From NCBI RefSeq assembly GCF_024502345.1, contig NZ_JALDNN010000001.1: a DNA stretch of 64,000 bases; one strand, written 5' to 3'. The position numbers and the translations under genes are program-made. Positions 52,599 to 60,326 of this stretch are shown here, one piece after another. The stretch's first letter is position 1, and every line of letters begins with the position of its first letter. The stretch comes from Escherichia coli (GTDB lineage Bacteria > Pseudomonadota > Gammaproteobacteria > Enterobacterales > Enterobacteriaceae). Under the pieces are notes generated by a model. The model was not told the DNA's origin and made no database searches. It worked only from the letters and a program-made list of their open reading frames with translations.

Positions 52599-53135
52599 TT
52601 AATATAGTGTCACAGCATTGTGAGGGCACTGGACAACGCATTCGCCACAACCATCACAGCGTTCGTTGTCAGCCGACATCCGTCCAGACTCATTAATAAA
52701 GCAAGCCTGTCGTGGGCATACATCCACGCACTGTTTACACTGTCTGACAGGATTCACACAGGCAGAGTTACAGAACACCGGGCGCAGTCCGGTATCAAAA
52801 CGAGACTGCACGCGTAGCGCGTCACTCGAACATGCTGCGATACACAAACCACAGCCATCACAACTGGCATATTCAATCATCAGTTGCGGGTAACCGTCTT
52901 CATGTCTGGACAGGACTCCCATTGGGCAGACATCAATGCACTGACTACATTGGGTACACTGGGTTATGAACTCCGCATCAGGAACCGCCCCTGGCGGCAA
53001 CGAATGTCCCAGCCGGGTAGACAGTACTTCTGGCGTTGTGTGCTTTGCCGCGCTGACAAACGCACGAAACAGTCCGCGCCGACTGACGTGCCGGTGAGCC
53101 ATCAATTCATGATAATATTTCTCTGATTTGTTCAT
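52599..53135 (-). CDS. ferredoxin-type protein with four 4Fe-4S-binding cysteine motifs
   Basis: 178 aa with four cysteine clusters (CTQCSQCIDVCP, CDGCGLCIAACS, CKQCVDVCP, CDGCGECVVQCP). Confidence 0.7.
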   Translation of the reverse strand: MNKSEKYYHELMAHRHVSRRGLFRAFVSAAKHTTPEVLSTRLGHSLPPGAVPDAEFITQCTQCSQCIDVCPMGVLSRHEDGYPQLMIEYASCDGCGLCIAACSSDALRVQSRFDTGLRPVFCNSACVNPVRQCKQCVDVCPRQACFINESGRMSADNERCDGCGECVVQCPHNAVTLY

Positions 53136-53728
53136 CCGAAATACAGCCGCTTCACCGCAGGTTGCAACGCCCGTTGCTGTTGCAAATCCTGCAAATAGCG
53201 CGTGGTCACGGCGGCAAGGCGAGCATAGAACGGACTCACCCTGTTGCCCTGCAGACGTTCAAGATAGCGATATCCCCACGGTAACAAATAAACCTCTAAC
53301 AGCTGATTAACTGCCGCATCTTTTCCAGCATCAAGTATCGCACTGCAGGCTAACAACATCAGCCCAAACTGATCTTCCGGCTCATTTTGACCCGAATTAA
53401 AAGTCATTCCCTGAGACTGCAGAAACGCCCGGTACTTAGCGGTGGTATTGCCCATTAGCAGGTTATCGCGTTCCAGCCAGACAGATCCCCAGGGTGGCAC
53501 GGGCATCTCGCCCTGCCCTTCAAACAGCACGGAGAATTGCCATGCCAGTTCGTCATTATCGGGAAACGGCCAGTCTGCGCACAGTGAAGCTGTTCCCGCA
53601 GGGTCGCTCCATGGGTACAGCTCCGACAGAGTGGGCAGACAATCGAAAAGTGCTTTCACCTCTGGTCGTTCCGGAGAGTAGTAAAACAGTGCACCGAGGA
53701 TCCTCGGTAATACAATATTGGGGGACAT
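53132..53728 (-). CDS. TorD/DmsD-family redox-enzyme maturation chaperone
   Basis: 198 aa; LGALFYY and PPWGSVW...NEPEDQFG motifs resemble recalled DmsD at about 40 percent. Confidence 0.75.
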   Translation of the reverse strand: MSPNIVLPRILGALFYYSPERPEVKALFDCLPTLSELYPWSDPAGTASLCADWPFPDNDELAWQFSVLFEGQGEMPVPPWGSVWLERDNLLMGNTTAKYRAFLQSQGMTFNSGQNEPEDQFGLMLLACSAILDAGKDAAVNQLLEVYLLPWGYRYLERLQGNRVSPFYARLAAVTTRYLQDLQQQRALQPAVKRLYFG

Positions 53729-53771
53729 CCTGAGTTCTCCTGAAAACAGAGCGGCTACAGCCGCTCACAGA

Positions 53772-57361: not shown

Positions 57362-58418
57362 GGCTTTGTTGAATAAATCGAACTTTTGCTGAGTTGAAGG
57401 ATCAGATCACGTATCTTCCCGACAACGCAGACCGTTCCGTGGCAAAGCAAAAGTTCAAAATCACCAACTGGCCCACCTACAATAAAGCCCTCATCAACCG
57501 TGGCTCCATAACTTTCTGGCTGGATGATGAAGCTATTCAGGCCTGGTATGAGTCAGCAACACCTTCTTCACGAGGCAGACCTCAGCGCTATTCTGACCTT
57601 GCCATCACGACTGTGCTGGTCATTAAACGCGTATTCAGGCTGACCCTGCGCGCTGCGCAGGGCTTTATTGATTCCATTTTTTCTCTGATGAACGTTCCGC
57701 TACGCTGCCCGGATTACAGCTGTGTCAGCAGGCGGGCAAAGTCGGTTAATGTCAGTTTCAAAACGCCCACCCGGGGTGAAATCGCACACCTGGTAATTGA
57801 TTCCACCGGGCTGAAGGTCTTCGGTGAAGGCGAGTGGAAAGTCAAAAAGCATGGCCAGGAACGCCGCCGTATCTGGCGTAAGCTGCATCTCGCCGTTGAC
57901 AGTAAAACACATGAAATCATCTGCGCTGACCTGTCGCTGAACAACGTTACGGACTCAGAGGCCTTCCCCGGGTTAATCCGGCAAACCCACCGGAAAATCA
58001 GGTCAGCCGCCGCCGATGGCGCTTACGATACCCGGCTATGTCACGATGAACTGCGGCGTAAGAAAATCAGCGCGCTTATCCCTCCCCGAAAAGGTGCGGG
58101 TTACTGGCCCGGTGAATATGCAGACCGTAACCGTGCAGTGGCTAATCAGCGAATGACCGGGAGTAATGCGCGGTGGAAATGGACAACAGATTACAACCGT
58201 CGCTCGATAGCGGAAACGGCGATGTACCGGGTAAAACAGCTGTTCGGGGGTTCACTGACACTGCGTGACTACGATGGTCAGGTTGCAGAGGCTATGGCCC
58301 TGGTACGAGCGCTGAACAAAATGACGAAAGCAGGTATGCCTGAAAGCGTGCGTATTGCCTGAAAACACAACCCGCTACGGGGGAGACTTACCCGAAATCT
58401 GATTTATTCAACAAAGCC
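57362..58418 (+). mobile_element. IS903-type insertion sequence, copy 5, 1057 bp, intact, no target duplication
   Basis: Flanks atcttccgg and ccggttgaa differ; transposase ORF 57394..58362. Confidence 0.9.
57394..58362 (+). CDS. IS903-type DDE transposase
   Basis: Identical 322-aa ORF. Confidence 0.9.
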   Translation: MKDQITYLPDNADRSVAKQKFKITNWPTYNKALINRGSITFWLDDEAIQAWYESATPSSRGRPQRYSDLAITTVLVIKRVFRLTLRAAQGFIDSIFSLMNVPLRCPDYSCVSRRAKSVNVSFKTPTRGEIAHLVIDSTGLKVFGEGEWKVKKHGQERRRIWRKLHLAVDSKTHEIICADLSLNNVTDSEAFPGLIRQTHRKIRSAAADGAYDTRLCHDELRRKKISALIPPRKGAGYWPGEYADRNRAVANQRMTGSNARWKWTTDYNRRSIAETAMYRVKQLFGGSLTLRDYDGQVAEAMALVRALNKMTKAGMPESVRIA

Positions 58419-60326
58419 CCGGTTGAATTTGGTCGCTTCAATGGCGGGGTAATTGATGCAAAGATCAAACGCTTCAACGCTGATGATAGCAAGGTGAAAT
58501 TGGGTTATCGCACTACGCGTTCGGACTGGTTAACATCGCATATCGATGAGAATAACAAGAGCGCATTTAATCAAGGCTCTTCAGGAAGTACTTATTACTC
58601 CCCAGATTTTAAAAAGAACTTTTATACCTTGTCGTTTAATCAGGAACTCGCTGATAACTTCGGCGTTACCGCCGTTTTATCGCGCCGCCAGTCTGATATC
58701 ACCCGCGCGGATTATGTTTCGAATGACGGCATTGTCGCCGGTCGGGCACAGTATAAAAACGTTATCGATACTGCATTGAGCAAATTTACCTGGTTTGCCA
58801 GCGACCGCTTTACCCACGATTTAACCTTAAAATATACCGGCTCCAGCCGTGATTATAATACCAGCACCTTCCCGCAGTCTGATCGCGAAATGGGTAATAA
58901 ATCCTACGGTCTGGCATGGGATATGGATACGCAGCTCGCATGGGCCAAACTGCGTACCACCGTTGGTTGGGATCATATTAGTGATTATACCCGTCACGAT
59001 CATGACATCTGGTACACCGAACTTTCATGTACATATGGTGATATTACAGGGCGTTGCACCCGTGGCGGATTAGGACACATTTCCCAGGCTGTAGATAATT
59101 ACACCTTCAAAACACGCCTGGACTGGCAAAAATTCGCCGTGGGTAATGTTTCGCATCAACCCTACTTCGGCGCGGAATACATCTATTCTGATGCGTGGAC
59201 TGAACGCCATAACCAGTCTGAATCCTATGTGATTAATGCTGCCGGAAAGAAAACTAACCATACCATTTACCATAAAGGTAAAGGCAGCCAGGGAATTGAC
59301 AACTACACGCTGTATATGGCGGATCGCATTAGCTGGCGTAATGTGTCATTAATGCCCGGCGTGCGGTATGACTATGACAACTATCTGTCAAACCACAATA
59401 TCTCCCCGCGCTTTATGACGGAATGGGATATTTTTGCTGATCAAACCTCAATGATTACAGCAGGTTATAACCGTTACTATGGCGGGAATATTCTTGATAT
59501 GGGATTACGTGATATCCGCAATAGCTGGACGGAATCGGTATCAGGCAATAAAACCCTGACGCGTTATCAGGATTTGAAAACGCCTTATAACGATGAACTG
59601 GCAATGGGATTGCAGCAGAAAATCGGTAAGAACGTTATTGCGCGCGCAAACTATGTTTACCGTGAAGCGCATGATCAAATCAGCAAAAGCAGTCGTACCG
59701 ACAGCGCGACTAAAACCACCATTACTGAATATAACAACGACGGCAAAACAAAAACGCATTCGTTCAACCTCAGTTTTGAACTGGCCGAACCCCTGCATAT
59801 CAGCCAGGTAGATATTAACCCGCAAATTGTCTTTAGCTATATCAAGAGCAAGGGCAACTTGTCGTTAAACAATGGTTATGAGGAGAGCAATACCGGTGAT
59901 AACCAGGTGGTTTATAACGGCAATCTGGTTTCTTACGATAGCGTTCCAGTGGCGGATTTTAATAACCCATTAAAGATCTCCTTAAACATGGATTTCACGC
60001 ATCAACCGAGCGGGTTGGTGTGGGCGAATACGCTGGCCTGGCAAGAAGCGCGTAAAGCTCGCATTATCCTGGGTAAGACGAATGCGCAATACATCAGCGA
60101 ATATTCAGATTACAAGCAGTATGTTGACGAAAAACTGGATAGCAGCCTGACCTGGGACACCCGCTTGTCCTGGACGCCACAATTTCTGAAACAACAAAAC
60201 CTGACGATCAGTGCCGATATTCTCAATGTACTGGATAGCAAAACCGCGGTTGATACAACGAATACCGGTGTGGCGACCTACGCCAGTGGCCGTACTTTCT
60301 GGCTTGATGTCAGCATGAAATTTTAA
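58419..60326 (+). pseudogene. yddB: TonB-dependent outer-membrane receptor, N-terminally truncated at the IS903 boundary
   Basis: Frame open from the IS junction; C-terminal beta-barrel ending ...FWLDVSMKF; plug domain absent; position upstream of pqqL. Confidence 0.75.

What the first reader, a model, noticed from the sequence alone, without database searches (positions are those of the whole stretch)
52599..60326. DMSO-reductase-family operon decapitated by IS903 and fused at the same junction to a truncated yddB
Five co-oriented genes encode a molybdopterin catalytic subunit, an Fe-S subunit, a membrane anchor, a DmsD-family chaperone and a four-cluster ferredoxin. The subunits are clearly distinct from the DmsABC and YnfFGH sequences I recall. 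The catalytic subunit has lost its Tat signal and N-terminal cysteine cluster at the boundary of IS903 copy 5. On the other side of the same IS, the TonB-dependent receptor gene yddB has lost its 5' end. Both genes point into the IS and the flanks do not match, so an IS-mediated deletion removed both 5' ends and the divergent promoter region between them.
Basis: partly seen in the sequence, partly recalled or inferred. Interest (0 to 1): 0.55.

Follow-up and report, generated by a model that had tools for sequence, protein, structure and literature searches.

The report
IS903B deletion junction truncating two operons
An insertion sequence (IS903B) sits at a deletion scar in an E. coli chromosome, where it has cut the front off an acquired DMSO-reductase-type operon on one side and the yddB iron-uptake receptor gene on the other; this is ordinary genome decay by mobile DNA, not a new system.

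Summary
The sequence features are real. On the minus strand, 52599-57361 holds a five-gene dmsABC-dmsD-napF-like operon. Its catalytic gene stops at the left end of a 1057-bp IS903B (57362-58418). It lacks codons 1-86: the Tat leader and three of the four FS0 cysteines. On the right, yddB starts at codon 156. There is no 9-bp target duplication.

The subunits are clearly not DmsABC or YnfEFGH (A 48-51%, B 60%, C 32-34%, D 35% identity). They belong to a separate enterobacterial group whose Salmonella arizonae member sits at the STM4305 position. An intact copy, 99.9% identical, is annotated in E. coli VREC0864.

Both genes point away from the IS, not into it. They were never divergent neighbours sharing a promoter. 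yddB is natively preceded by co-oriented yddA, and the dms operon lies in a large acquired island inserted beside hipA. In comparator genomes tens of kilobases separate the two break points, including island genes, a fimbrial cluster, ydeP, safA-ydeO, ydeNM and yddA. None of this DNA is in the window.

The junction topology fits an IS903B-associated deletion. Adjacent deletion and IS-IS recombination cannot be told apart. Both operons are probably dead. Interest is low.

The parts
52599..53135 (-). NapF-like (DmsE-like) polyferredoxin gene, last gene of the operon. It has an N-terminal SRRGLF motif. Intact.
   Evidence: TIGR00402 napF, 97.1 bits against a cutoff of 102.2; 48-74% identical orthologues in the same position in Citrobacter, Intestinirhabdus, Cedecea and others.
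53132..53728 (-). TorD/DmsD-family chaperone gene. Intact.
   Evidence: NF008632 DmsD, 146 bits against a cutoff of 162; 35% identity to K-12 DmsD.
53772..54557 (-). DmsC-family membrane anchor gene. The annotated start in the relative corresponds to ATG 54545. Intact.
   Evidence: Pfam PF04976 DmsC, E = 1.8e-36; 32-34% identity to DmsC and YnfH.
54538..55164 (-). DmsB-type four-cluster Fe-S subunit gene. Intact.
   Evidence: TIGR02951, 281 bits against a cutoff of 214; about 60% identity to DmsB and YnfG.
55178..57361 (-). 5'-truncated catalytic (A) subunit gene, codons 87-813. The longest ORF starts at ATG 57250 (690 aa). It lacks the Tat leader and three of the four FS0 cysteines.
   Evidence: 100% identical to residues 87-813 of VREC0864 WP_050488533.1; the Fe4S4 domain is lost; no upstream start; the Mo-ligand Ser is conserved.
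57362..58418 (+). IS903B copy 5, 1057 bp, with an intact transposase ORF (57394-58362). No target-site duplication. This is the deletion junction.
   Evidence: IR GGCTTTGTTGAATAAATC; flanks ATCTTCCGG and CCGGTTGAA; 100% identical to annotated IS903B copies. NF033579 IS5 family.
58419..60326 (+). 5'-truncated yddB (TonB-dependent receptor), codons 156-790. The signal peptide and N-terminal region are lost, along with upstream yddA and its promoter.
   Evidence: 99.3% identical to FDAARGOS_944 yddB, starting at nt 466 of 2373.
60371..63166 (+). pqqL, the intact third gene of the yddA-yddB-pqqL cluster. It is now separated from its native upstream genes.
51508..52565 (-). IS903B copy 4, 1058 bp, with a +1 T frameshift. 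It is a simple insertion downstream of the operon with the 9-bp duplication CCTCGTTTC, and it is inverted relative to copy 5.
   Evidence: L001 8001-8009 is present on both sides..

Best explanation
The region is a deletion scar bounded by one IS903B copy.

Inferred ancestor: it carried a large acquired island next to hipA. The island included a complete STM4305-type dmsABC-dmsD-napF-like operon. The normal chromosomal run followed to its right: fimbrial cluster, ydeP, safA-ydeO, ydeN-ydeM, yddA-yddB-pqqL.

Inferred event: an IS903B-associated deletion removed everything between codon 86 of the catalytic gene and codon 155 of yddB. A single IS was left joining the two 3' portions in their original orientations. 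Two mechanisms are possible and cannot be distinguished here: an adjacent deletion by intramolecular replicative transposition, or homologous recombination between two directly oriented IS903B copies.

Shown directly: the exact break points, the absence of a target duplication, the absence of any start codon or Tat signal, and the absence of the lost DNA from the window.

Inferred consequences:
- The A remnant cannot be exported and cannot receive electrons from DmsB, because the Tat leader is gone and FS0 is incomplete.
- The downstream B, C, D and NapF-like genes have lost their promoter.
- yddB is non-functional and yddA is gone.
- The dms module is therefore respiratorily dead, and so is the YddAB-PqqL import system.
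- The event looks recent. The four downstream genes are intact, the DNA is 99.9% identical to the intact relative, and IS copies 1, 2 and 5 are identical.
For: - Break points and identity to the intact operon.
- yddB break point and its native co-oriented upstream neighbour yddA.
- No TSD at copy 5, while copy 4 has a perfect 9-bp TSD.
- The retained parts keep the relative orientation seen in VREC0864 (dms operon on the minus strand, to the left of plus-strand gadC/digH) and in FDAARGOS_944 and STK77-E. That is the topology a deletion gives, and an inversion does not.
- The lost dmsA 5' end, the upstream island genes, yddA, the yddB 5' end, ydeM through ydeP and the fimbrial genes are nowhere in the window.
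- VREC0864 has an analogous deletion of the same chromosomal stretch, ending at ISKpn26|gadC', so this locus is prone to such events.
- The same window shows another IS903B-mediated rearrangement, a 2.35-kb inversion with reciprocal 9-bp flanks.
- The literature reports that IS903 makes adjacent deletions and cointegrates: PMC12670165, PMC11708052.
- No promoter-like site at the IS left end reads into the operon.
Against: - The ancestor is inferred from only one genome with the intact operon (VREC0864) and from island-bearing or island-free chromosomes.
- The island in the window is not colinear with VREC0864. A 3.5-kb block (IS110-family fragment, RelE/ParE and ISKpn26; window 29752-33277) lies upstream of dmsA in VREC0864. 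In the window it lies about 22 kb downstream of the operon's last gene (about 27.6 kb before the junction), next to IS903B copy 3. More than one rearrangement therefore happened, and their order is unknown.
- The lost DNA could survive elsewhere in the genome, outside the window.
- Non-function of the remnant is inferred, not measured.
Confidence: 0.8

Rival explanations
1. Insertion rather than deletion. The segment between the directly oriented IS903B copies 3 and 5 (29752-57361) entered the chromosome as a circular molecule carrying one IS903B between dmsA' and the IS110/RelE/ISKpn26 block. That molecule could have been a plasmid or an excised circle. Entry was by IS903B cointegrate formation or by IS-IS recombination, so dmsA was already truncated in the donor.
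For: - Copies 3 and 5 are in direct orientation, and neither has a TSD.
- Relative to VREC0864, the block adjacent to copy 3 is circularly permuted with respect to the dms operon. This is what linearising a circle at an IS would give.
- IS903 forms cointegrates (PMC12670165).
- Related dms operons are carried on plasmids and phage-plasmids.
Against: - Copies 3 and 5 are not identical: copy 3 has a +1 T frameshift.
- The outer flanks ATGGGCTGT and CCGGTTGAA are not a duplicated target.
- The outer flanks are not contiguous in reference chromosomes. One lies in the island's second integrase gene and the other in yddB, more than 16 kb away. A deletion would still be required.
- The same island occupies the same chromosomal site in VREC0864 and STK77-E.
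Confidence: 0.1
2. Assembly artefact. Copies 1, 2 and 5 are 100% identical 1057-bp repeats, so a short-read assembler could have joined the wrong flanks. dmsA' and yddB' would each abut an IS903B but not the same copy.
For: - Identical repeats longer than typical read lengths.
- No other of 5426 complete E. coli genomes has this junction.
Against: - The flanks of copies 1 and 2 form a self-consistent reciprocal pattern, and copy 4 has a clean TSD. This suggests a resolved assembly.
- No alternative partner flanks for copy 5 exist in the window.
- Even if the join were wrong, both genes would still be truncated at IS ends.
Confidence: 0.05
3. The remnant is still used. Transcription reading out of the IS, or from an internal promoter, expresses a leaderless cytoplasmic A' (from ATG 57250) with B, C, D and the NapF-like protein, giving a new or residual activity.
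For: - The four downstream genes and a 690-aa ORF are intact.
- The Mo-ligand Ser and both molybdopterin domains are retained.
Against: - No promoter-like site faces the operon at the IS end.
- No Shine-Dalgarno-like sequence is evident before ATG 57250 (sequence).
- Three of the four FS0 cysteines and the Tat leader are missing. From established knowledge of DmsA these are needed for electron transfer and for chaperone-guided maturation and export.
- The intactness is equally explained by the event being recent.
Confidence: 0.04

Closest known systems
Salmonella STM4305-STM4308 alternate DMSO reductase (pheU/dcuS-adjacent island), with chromosomal orthologues in Citrobacter, Intestinirhabdus, Cedecea and Trabulsiella
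   Same: - The A subunit is 77-85% identical to these orthologues. B is 86-94% identical, and C and D are colinear.
- The S. enterica subsp. arizonae copy lies directly after dcuB-dcuR-dcuS, the position of STM4305 (PMC1360685).
- STM4305 supported DMSO-dependent anaerobic growth when supplied in trans to a triple dmsA mutant (bioRxiv 10.1101/2022.11.29.517730).
   Different: - In this window the operon is on an IS-rich acquired island in E. coli and has lost codons 1-86 of A.
- It also carries a fifth, NapF-like gene. That gene is absent from the S. arizonae locus and from the published STM4305-4308 description.
- Orthology to LT2 STM4305 itself is inferred from synteny, not tested directly.
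E. coli DmsABC and YnfEFGH-DmsD
   Same: - Same subfamily: TIGR02166 for A, TIGR02951 for B, Pfam DmsC for C, TorD/DmsD family for D.
- Same gene order A-B-C.
- In the intact relative, the same Tat leader, FS0 Cys group and Ser Mo ligand.
   Different: - Identity is only 48-51% for A, about 60% for B, 32-34% for C and 35% for D.
- Scores are far below the NCBIfam cut-offs for DmsA, YnfE and YnfF: 886 against 1600, 927 against 1675, and 870 against 1650.
- It is a separate paralogue.
Haemophilus influenzae dmsABCDE operon
   Same: Same layout of five genes: the three structural genes followed by two accessory genes, dmsD and dmsE (PMC12096835).
   Different: - No sequence comparison with the H. 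influenzae proteins was made here.
- That dmsE is the NapF-like ferredoxin is from my own recollection, not from a tool result.
IS903-group adjacent deletions, and Tn903-type composite structures
   Same: - A 1057-bp IS5-family element with 18-bp IRs and 9-bp TSDs (copy 4).
- Deletion-type junctions without a TSD (copies 3 and 5).
- Inverted copies 4 and 5 bracket 4.8 kb, as in Tn903 (PMC12670165, PMC11708052).
   Different: The bracketed unit was not inserted as a transposon. Copy 4 has its own TSD within sequence that is continuous in VREC0864, and the outer flanks of copies 4 and 5 do not match.

Membership tests
DmsA/YnfE/YnfF subfamily (NCBIfam TIGR02166) | Whole-protein score above the curated cut-off | tested here: met
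   the intact relative (813 aa, 100% identical to the window over residues 87-813) scores 1122 bits against a cut-off of 777.7.
DmsA/YnfE/YnfF subfamily (NCBIfam TIGR02166) | N-terminal twin-arginine (Tat) leader | tested here: not met
   the window copy starts at residue 87. The SRR motif at 14-16 of the intact relative is absent, and no in-frame start lies upstream of ATG 57250.
DmsA/YnfE/YnfF subfamily (NCBIfam TIGR02166) | N-terminal FS0 cysteine group (CX2CX3CXnC; Pfam Molybdop_Fe4S4) | tested here: not met
   C63, C67 and C71 are lost and only C104 is kept. PF04879 is found in the intact protein but not in the remnant.
DmsA/YnfE/YnfF subfamily (NCBIfam TIGR02166) | Serine ligand to molybdenum, and both molybdopterin domains | tested here: met
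   Ser113 of the remnant aligns with Ser147 of R. sphaeroides DMSO reductase (1eu1). That Ser147 is the Mo ligand is from my own knowledge. PF00384 and PF01568 are present.
E. coli DmsA, YnfE or YnfF proper | Score above the NCBIfam exception-model cut-offs; near-identity | tested here: not met
   886 against 1600 (DmsA), 927 against 1675 (YnfE), 870 against 1650 (YnfF); 48-51% identity.
DmsB (TIGR02951) | Score above the cut-off; four Cys groups | tested here: met
   281 bits against 214.1. Four CX2CX2-4CX3C(P)-type groups are visible in the translation.
DmsC anchor (Pfam PF04976) | Full-length match to the DmsC profile | tested here: met
   E = 1.8e-36, model positions 5-275 of 275. No NCBIfam hit.
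DmsD (NF008632 equivalog) | Score above the curated cut-off | tested here: not met
   146 bits against 162. It is a TorD/DmsD-family chaperone but not the DmsD equivalog; 35% identity to K-12 DmsD.
NapF (TIGR00402 equivalog) | Score above the curated cut-off | tested here: not met
   97.1 bits against 102.2, just below. It is NapF-like, with an SRRGLF motif and four Cys groups, one of them atypical.
IS903 group (IS5 family) | About 1057 bp, terminal inverted repeats, 9-bp target duplication, IS5-family DDE transposase | tested here: met
   1057 bp with an 18-bp IR; copy 4 has a 9-bp TSD. NF033579; 100% identical to annotated IS903B. Copy 5 itself has no TSD.
Composite transposon (Tn903-like) formed by copies 4 and 5 | Target duplication flanking the whole IS-cargo-IS unit | tested here: not met
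   the outer flanks CCTCGTTTC and CCGGTTGAA differ; copy 4 has its own TSD.
yddB (TonB-dependent receptor of the yddA-yddB-pqqL cluster) | Full-length gene with signal peptide, preceded by yddA | tested here: not met
   99.3% identical DNA, but codons 1-155 and yddA are absent.

The most novel reading that the evidence does not exclude
The most novel reading not excluded has two parts.

1. The inverted IS903B pair (copies 4 and 5) now forms a mobilisable Tn903-like unit carrying the leaderless dms remnant, and the remnant is expressed as a cytoplasmic molybdoenzyme with a changed role.

2. A broader and better-supported side observation: this STM4305-type dmsABCDE module is a horizontally mobile respiratory cassette in E. 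coli. It is ISKpn26-flanked on chromosomes and plasmids and is carried on P1-like phage-plasmids. Its A gene has recently been exchanged between variants by recombination.
Probability: 0.05. Interest if true: 0.45.

Novelty: already known. Interest (0 to 1): 0.15.

Why it matters
It matters little beyond strain annotation. It shows that this strain has lost an accessory DMSO/S-oxide-type reductase, the YddA-YddB part of the PqqL import system, and (at least from this locus) the ydeP/safA-ydeO acid-resistance regulators and a fimbrial cluster. All of this went in one IS903B-associated event. It is a clean example of how a recent IS903B expansion reshapes an island-rich region of the E. coli chromosome. 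The operon itself, the IS and this type of event are all already described.

Tried and rejected
- I looked for any complete E. coli genome with the same junction. None has it: 0 of 5426 cover at least 80% of 52400-60400.
- I looked for more genomes with the intact operon and its upstream region. Only VREC0864 has them.
- I tested whether the block of 100% identity between two operon variants starts at the IS junction, which would have implicated the IS in spreading the A gene. It starts at about nt 346, not nt 258, so the two are unrelated.
- I tested whether copies 4 and 5 mark an inserted composite transposon. Rejected, because copy 4 has its own TSD in otherwise continuous sequence.
- I tested the simple-cointegrate model for copies 3 and 5. 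The copies differ by a frameshift, and the outer flanks neither match nor adjoin.
- I searched the window for the missing halves of both genes and the intervening DNA. They are absent.
- I looked for an outward promoter at the IS end. None was found.
- I searched the literature for dms operons on phage-plasmids. Nothing relevant turned up.
- I did not identify the source strain.
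Full report
**What is in the sequence**

The window holds five copies of a 1057/1058-bp IS5-family element: 16836-17892 (+), 20247-21303 (-), 28694-29751 (+), 51508-52565 (-) and 57362-58418 (+). The element has 18-bp terminal repeats (GGCTTTGTTGAATAAATC). It is 100% identical to copies annotated as IS903B in many E. coli genomes.

Left of copy 5, on the minus strand, are five co-oriented genes:
- 52599-53135: a NapF-like ferredoxin (TIGR00402, 97 bits against a cut-off of 102). 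It has an SRRGLF motif, three canonical Cys groups and one atypical group.
- 53132-53728: a TorD/DmsD-family chaperone (146 bits against 162 for the DmsD equivalog).
- 53772-54557: a DmsC-family anchor (Pfam PF04976, E = 1.8e-36).
- 54538-55164: a DmsB subunit (TIGR02951, 281 bits against 214).
- 55178-57361: a catalytic-subunit remnant.

Right of copy 5 are yddB sequence from 58419 to 60326, and then an intact pqqL.

**The truncations**

E. coli VREC0864 (NZ_LR536431.1) carries the same operon at 99.9% DNA identity, with an intact 813-aa catalytic subunit. Homology to it stops exactly at the IS end, and 258 nt (86 codons) are missing from the window. The remaining 727 codons are 100% identical.

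An alignment with DmsA, YnfE and YnfF shows what was lost: the Tat motif (S14-R15-R16), the leader, and C63, C67 and C71 of the FS0 group. C104 is retained. Pfam finds the Molybdop_Fe4S4 domain in the intact protein but not in the remnant.

The reading frame is open for only 15 codons into the IS. It has no ATG, GTG or TTG before ATG 57250.

yddB is 99.3% identical to that of strain FDAARGOS_944, but it begins at nt 466 of 2373. Codons 1-155 are missing.

The 9-bp flanks of copy 5 are ATCTTCCGG and CCGGTTGAA, so there is no target duplication. Copy 4, by contrast, is a simple insertion with a perfect 9-bp duplication (CCTCGTTTC) in sequence that is continuous in VREC0864.

**One error in the description**

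Both genes have their 5' ends at the IS, so they are transcribed away from it. They do not point into it.

**What the operon is**

The intact A subunit belongs to the DmsA/YnfE subfamily (TIGR02166, 1122 bits). It scores far below the specific models for DmsA, YnfE and YnfF.

Identity to the K-12 proteins is low:

| Subunit | Identity to K-12 counterpart |
|---|---|
| A | 48-51% |
| B | about 60% |
| C | 32-34% |
| D | 35% |

The second refutation test, near-identity to YnfFGH, is therefore also negative.

A scan of species-representative genomes found chromosomal orthologues with A at 77-85% identity. They occur in Intestinirhabdus alba, Citrobacter amalonaticus, C. sedlakii, Salmonella enterica subsp. 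arizonae, Cedecea, Trabulsiella, a Klebsiella sp. and Symbiopectobacterium. Nearly all have the same five genes in the same order.

The S. arizonae copy lies directly after dcuB-dcuR-dcuS. This is the position of the STM4305 island of S. Typhimurium (PMC1360685). STM4305 can support DMSO-dependent anaerobic growth when supplied in trans to a triple dmsA mutant (bioRxiv 10.1101/2022.11.29.517730).

An operon of dmsABC followed by two accessory genes, dmsD and dmsE, is described in H. influenzae (PMC12096835).

The serine that aligns with the Mo ligand Ser147 of R. sphaeroides DMSO reductase is conserved. The most likely activity of the intact enzyme is therefore S-/N-oxide reduction at the periplasmic face with menaquinol as donor. 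This is inferred from family membership, not tested.

**How the junction arose**

The two genes were never neighbours.
- In reference chromosomes, yddB is preceded by co-oriented yddA.
- The dms operon lies in a large acquired island whose integrase end sits next to hipA.
- In VREC0864, the DNA upstream of dmsA holds a hypothetical gene, then TetR, CMD, thioredoxin, DMT, DsbA, GorA, IS200C, an OsmC-family gene, an S-4TM/nucleotidyltransferase pair and several IS elements.
- In STK77-E, which has a shorter version of the island, about 16.7 kb of chromosome separates the island end from yddB codon 155. That stretch holds a fimbrial cluster, ydeP, safA, ydeO, ydeN, ydeM and yddA.

None of this DNA, and neither of the two lost 5' ends, is anywhere in the window.

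The retained parts keep the relative order and orientation seen in VREC0864: the dms operon on the minus strand, to the left of the plus-strand yddB-to-gadC side. A deletion gives this topology and an inversion does not.

IS903 is documented to make adjacent deletions and cointegrates (PMC12670165, PMC11708052). Recombination between two direct IS903B copies would leave the same scar, so the sequence cannot separate the two routes.

VREC0864 itself has an analogous but larger deletion, ending at ISKpn26|gadC'.

**Complication**

The island in the window is not colinear with VREC0864. A 3.5-kb block at 29752-33277 (an IS110-family fragment, RelE/ParE and ISKpn26) lies 12.5 kb upstream of dmsA in VREC0864. 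In the window it lies about 22 kb downstream of the operon's last gene (about 27.6 kb before the junction), directly after IS903B copy 3. Copy 3 also lacks a TSD and truncates the island's second integrase gene.

This circular permutation suggests re-insertion of a circle or a cointegrate. A simple cointegrate is not supported, for three reasons:
- Copies 3 and 5 differ by a frameshift.
- Their outer flanks do not match.
- Those outer flanks are far apart in reference chromosomes.

I leave this point unexplained.

**Consequences (inferred)**

- Without the Tat leader and with an incomplete FS0 group, the A remnant cannot be matured or exported, and cannot accept electrons from DmsB.
- B, C, D and the NapF-like gene are intact but have lost their promoter. 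No promoter-like site at the IS end faces them.
- yddB lacks its signal peptide and N-terminal region, and yddA is gone.
- pqqL is intact. It lies downstream of the co-oriented IS903B transposase gene, so read-through transcription is possible but untested.

**Verdict**

It is an IS-bounded deletion, but of tens of kilobases between an acquired island and the chromosome, not of a shared divergent promoter.

The operon, the IS and the type of event are all known. The exact junction is unique among 5426 complete E. coli genomes, but it is ordinary in kind. Interest is low.

Noticed in passing
window 16836-21303: IS903B copies 1 (+) and 2 (-) bracket a 2354-bp inverted piece (17893-20246): the lsrK-autotransporter intergenic region plus the 5' part of the ECSE_1600-family autotransporter gene. 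The 9-bp flanks are reciprocal: GCTGGCTTG / ACACCTAAG against CAAGCCAGC / CTTAGGTGT. The sites map to STK77-E L008 17656-17664 and 20001-20009. This fits either two insertions followed by IS-IS inversion, or one intramolecular replicative inversion.
   Followed up: yes
window 28694-29751 and 51508-52565: IS903B copies 3 and 4 are identical to each other. Both carry a +1 T at IS nt 256 that frameshifts the transposase, yet copy 4 is a clean insertion with a 9-bp TSD. This implies mobilisation in trans or later gene conversion between copies. The first would be notable, because IS903 transposase is known to be cis-acting (my own knowledge).
   Followed up: partly
L001 / L002 (A gene nt ~346-2469); window 54890-57015 approx.: The ISKpn26-flanked operon variant found in poultry and human E. 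coli chromosomes and plasmids (for example NZ_CP139182.1) is a mosaic. About 2.1 kb of its A gene is 100% identical to the window/VREC0864 type, while the 5' end and the B-C-D-napF-like genes are only 60-87% identical. This points to a recent recombination tract between two operon variants.
   Followed up: partly
L029 (NZ_CP030154.1 plasmid pJSMCR1_2) and hits H2-H14, H58-H68: A third variant of the five-gene operon (about 74% DNA identity) is carried on P1-like phage-plasmids. It lies between ISKpn26 and IS1A, next to the c1 repressor and KilAC antirepressor genes. I found no paper describing this cargo.
   Followed up: partly
window 28694-33277: IS903B copy 3 has no TSD. It joins the 5' 574 nt of the island's second integrase gene to an IS110-family fragment, RelE/ParE and ISKpn26 block. 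In VREC0864 that block lies on the other side of the dms operon. The island is therefore circularly permuted relative to the only intact comparator, and this is unexplained.
   Followed up: partly
L004 (NZ_LR536431.1 2726203-2726679): VREC0864 has lost the same chromosomal stretch and more: the island ends at ISKpn26, fused to a 5'-truncated gadC. Two lineages have therefore independently deleted the ydeP-yddB (and through gadB) region from the same island edge, using different IS elements.
   Followed up: partly
window 51508-58418: Inverted IS903B copies 4 and 5 now bracket the 4.8-kb operon remnant in a Tn903-like arrangement. It could in principle transpose as a unit, although it did not arrive as one.
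   Followed up: yes
window 1-16835 and 58419-64000: The chromosomal backbone is at best 98.9-99.3% identical to any of 5426 complete E. coli genomes. The source lineage is therefore poorly represented among them. The source strain was not identified.
   Followed up: no
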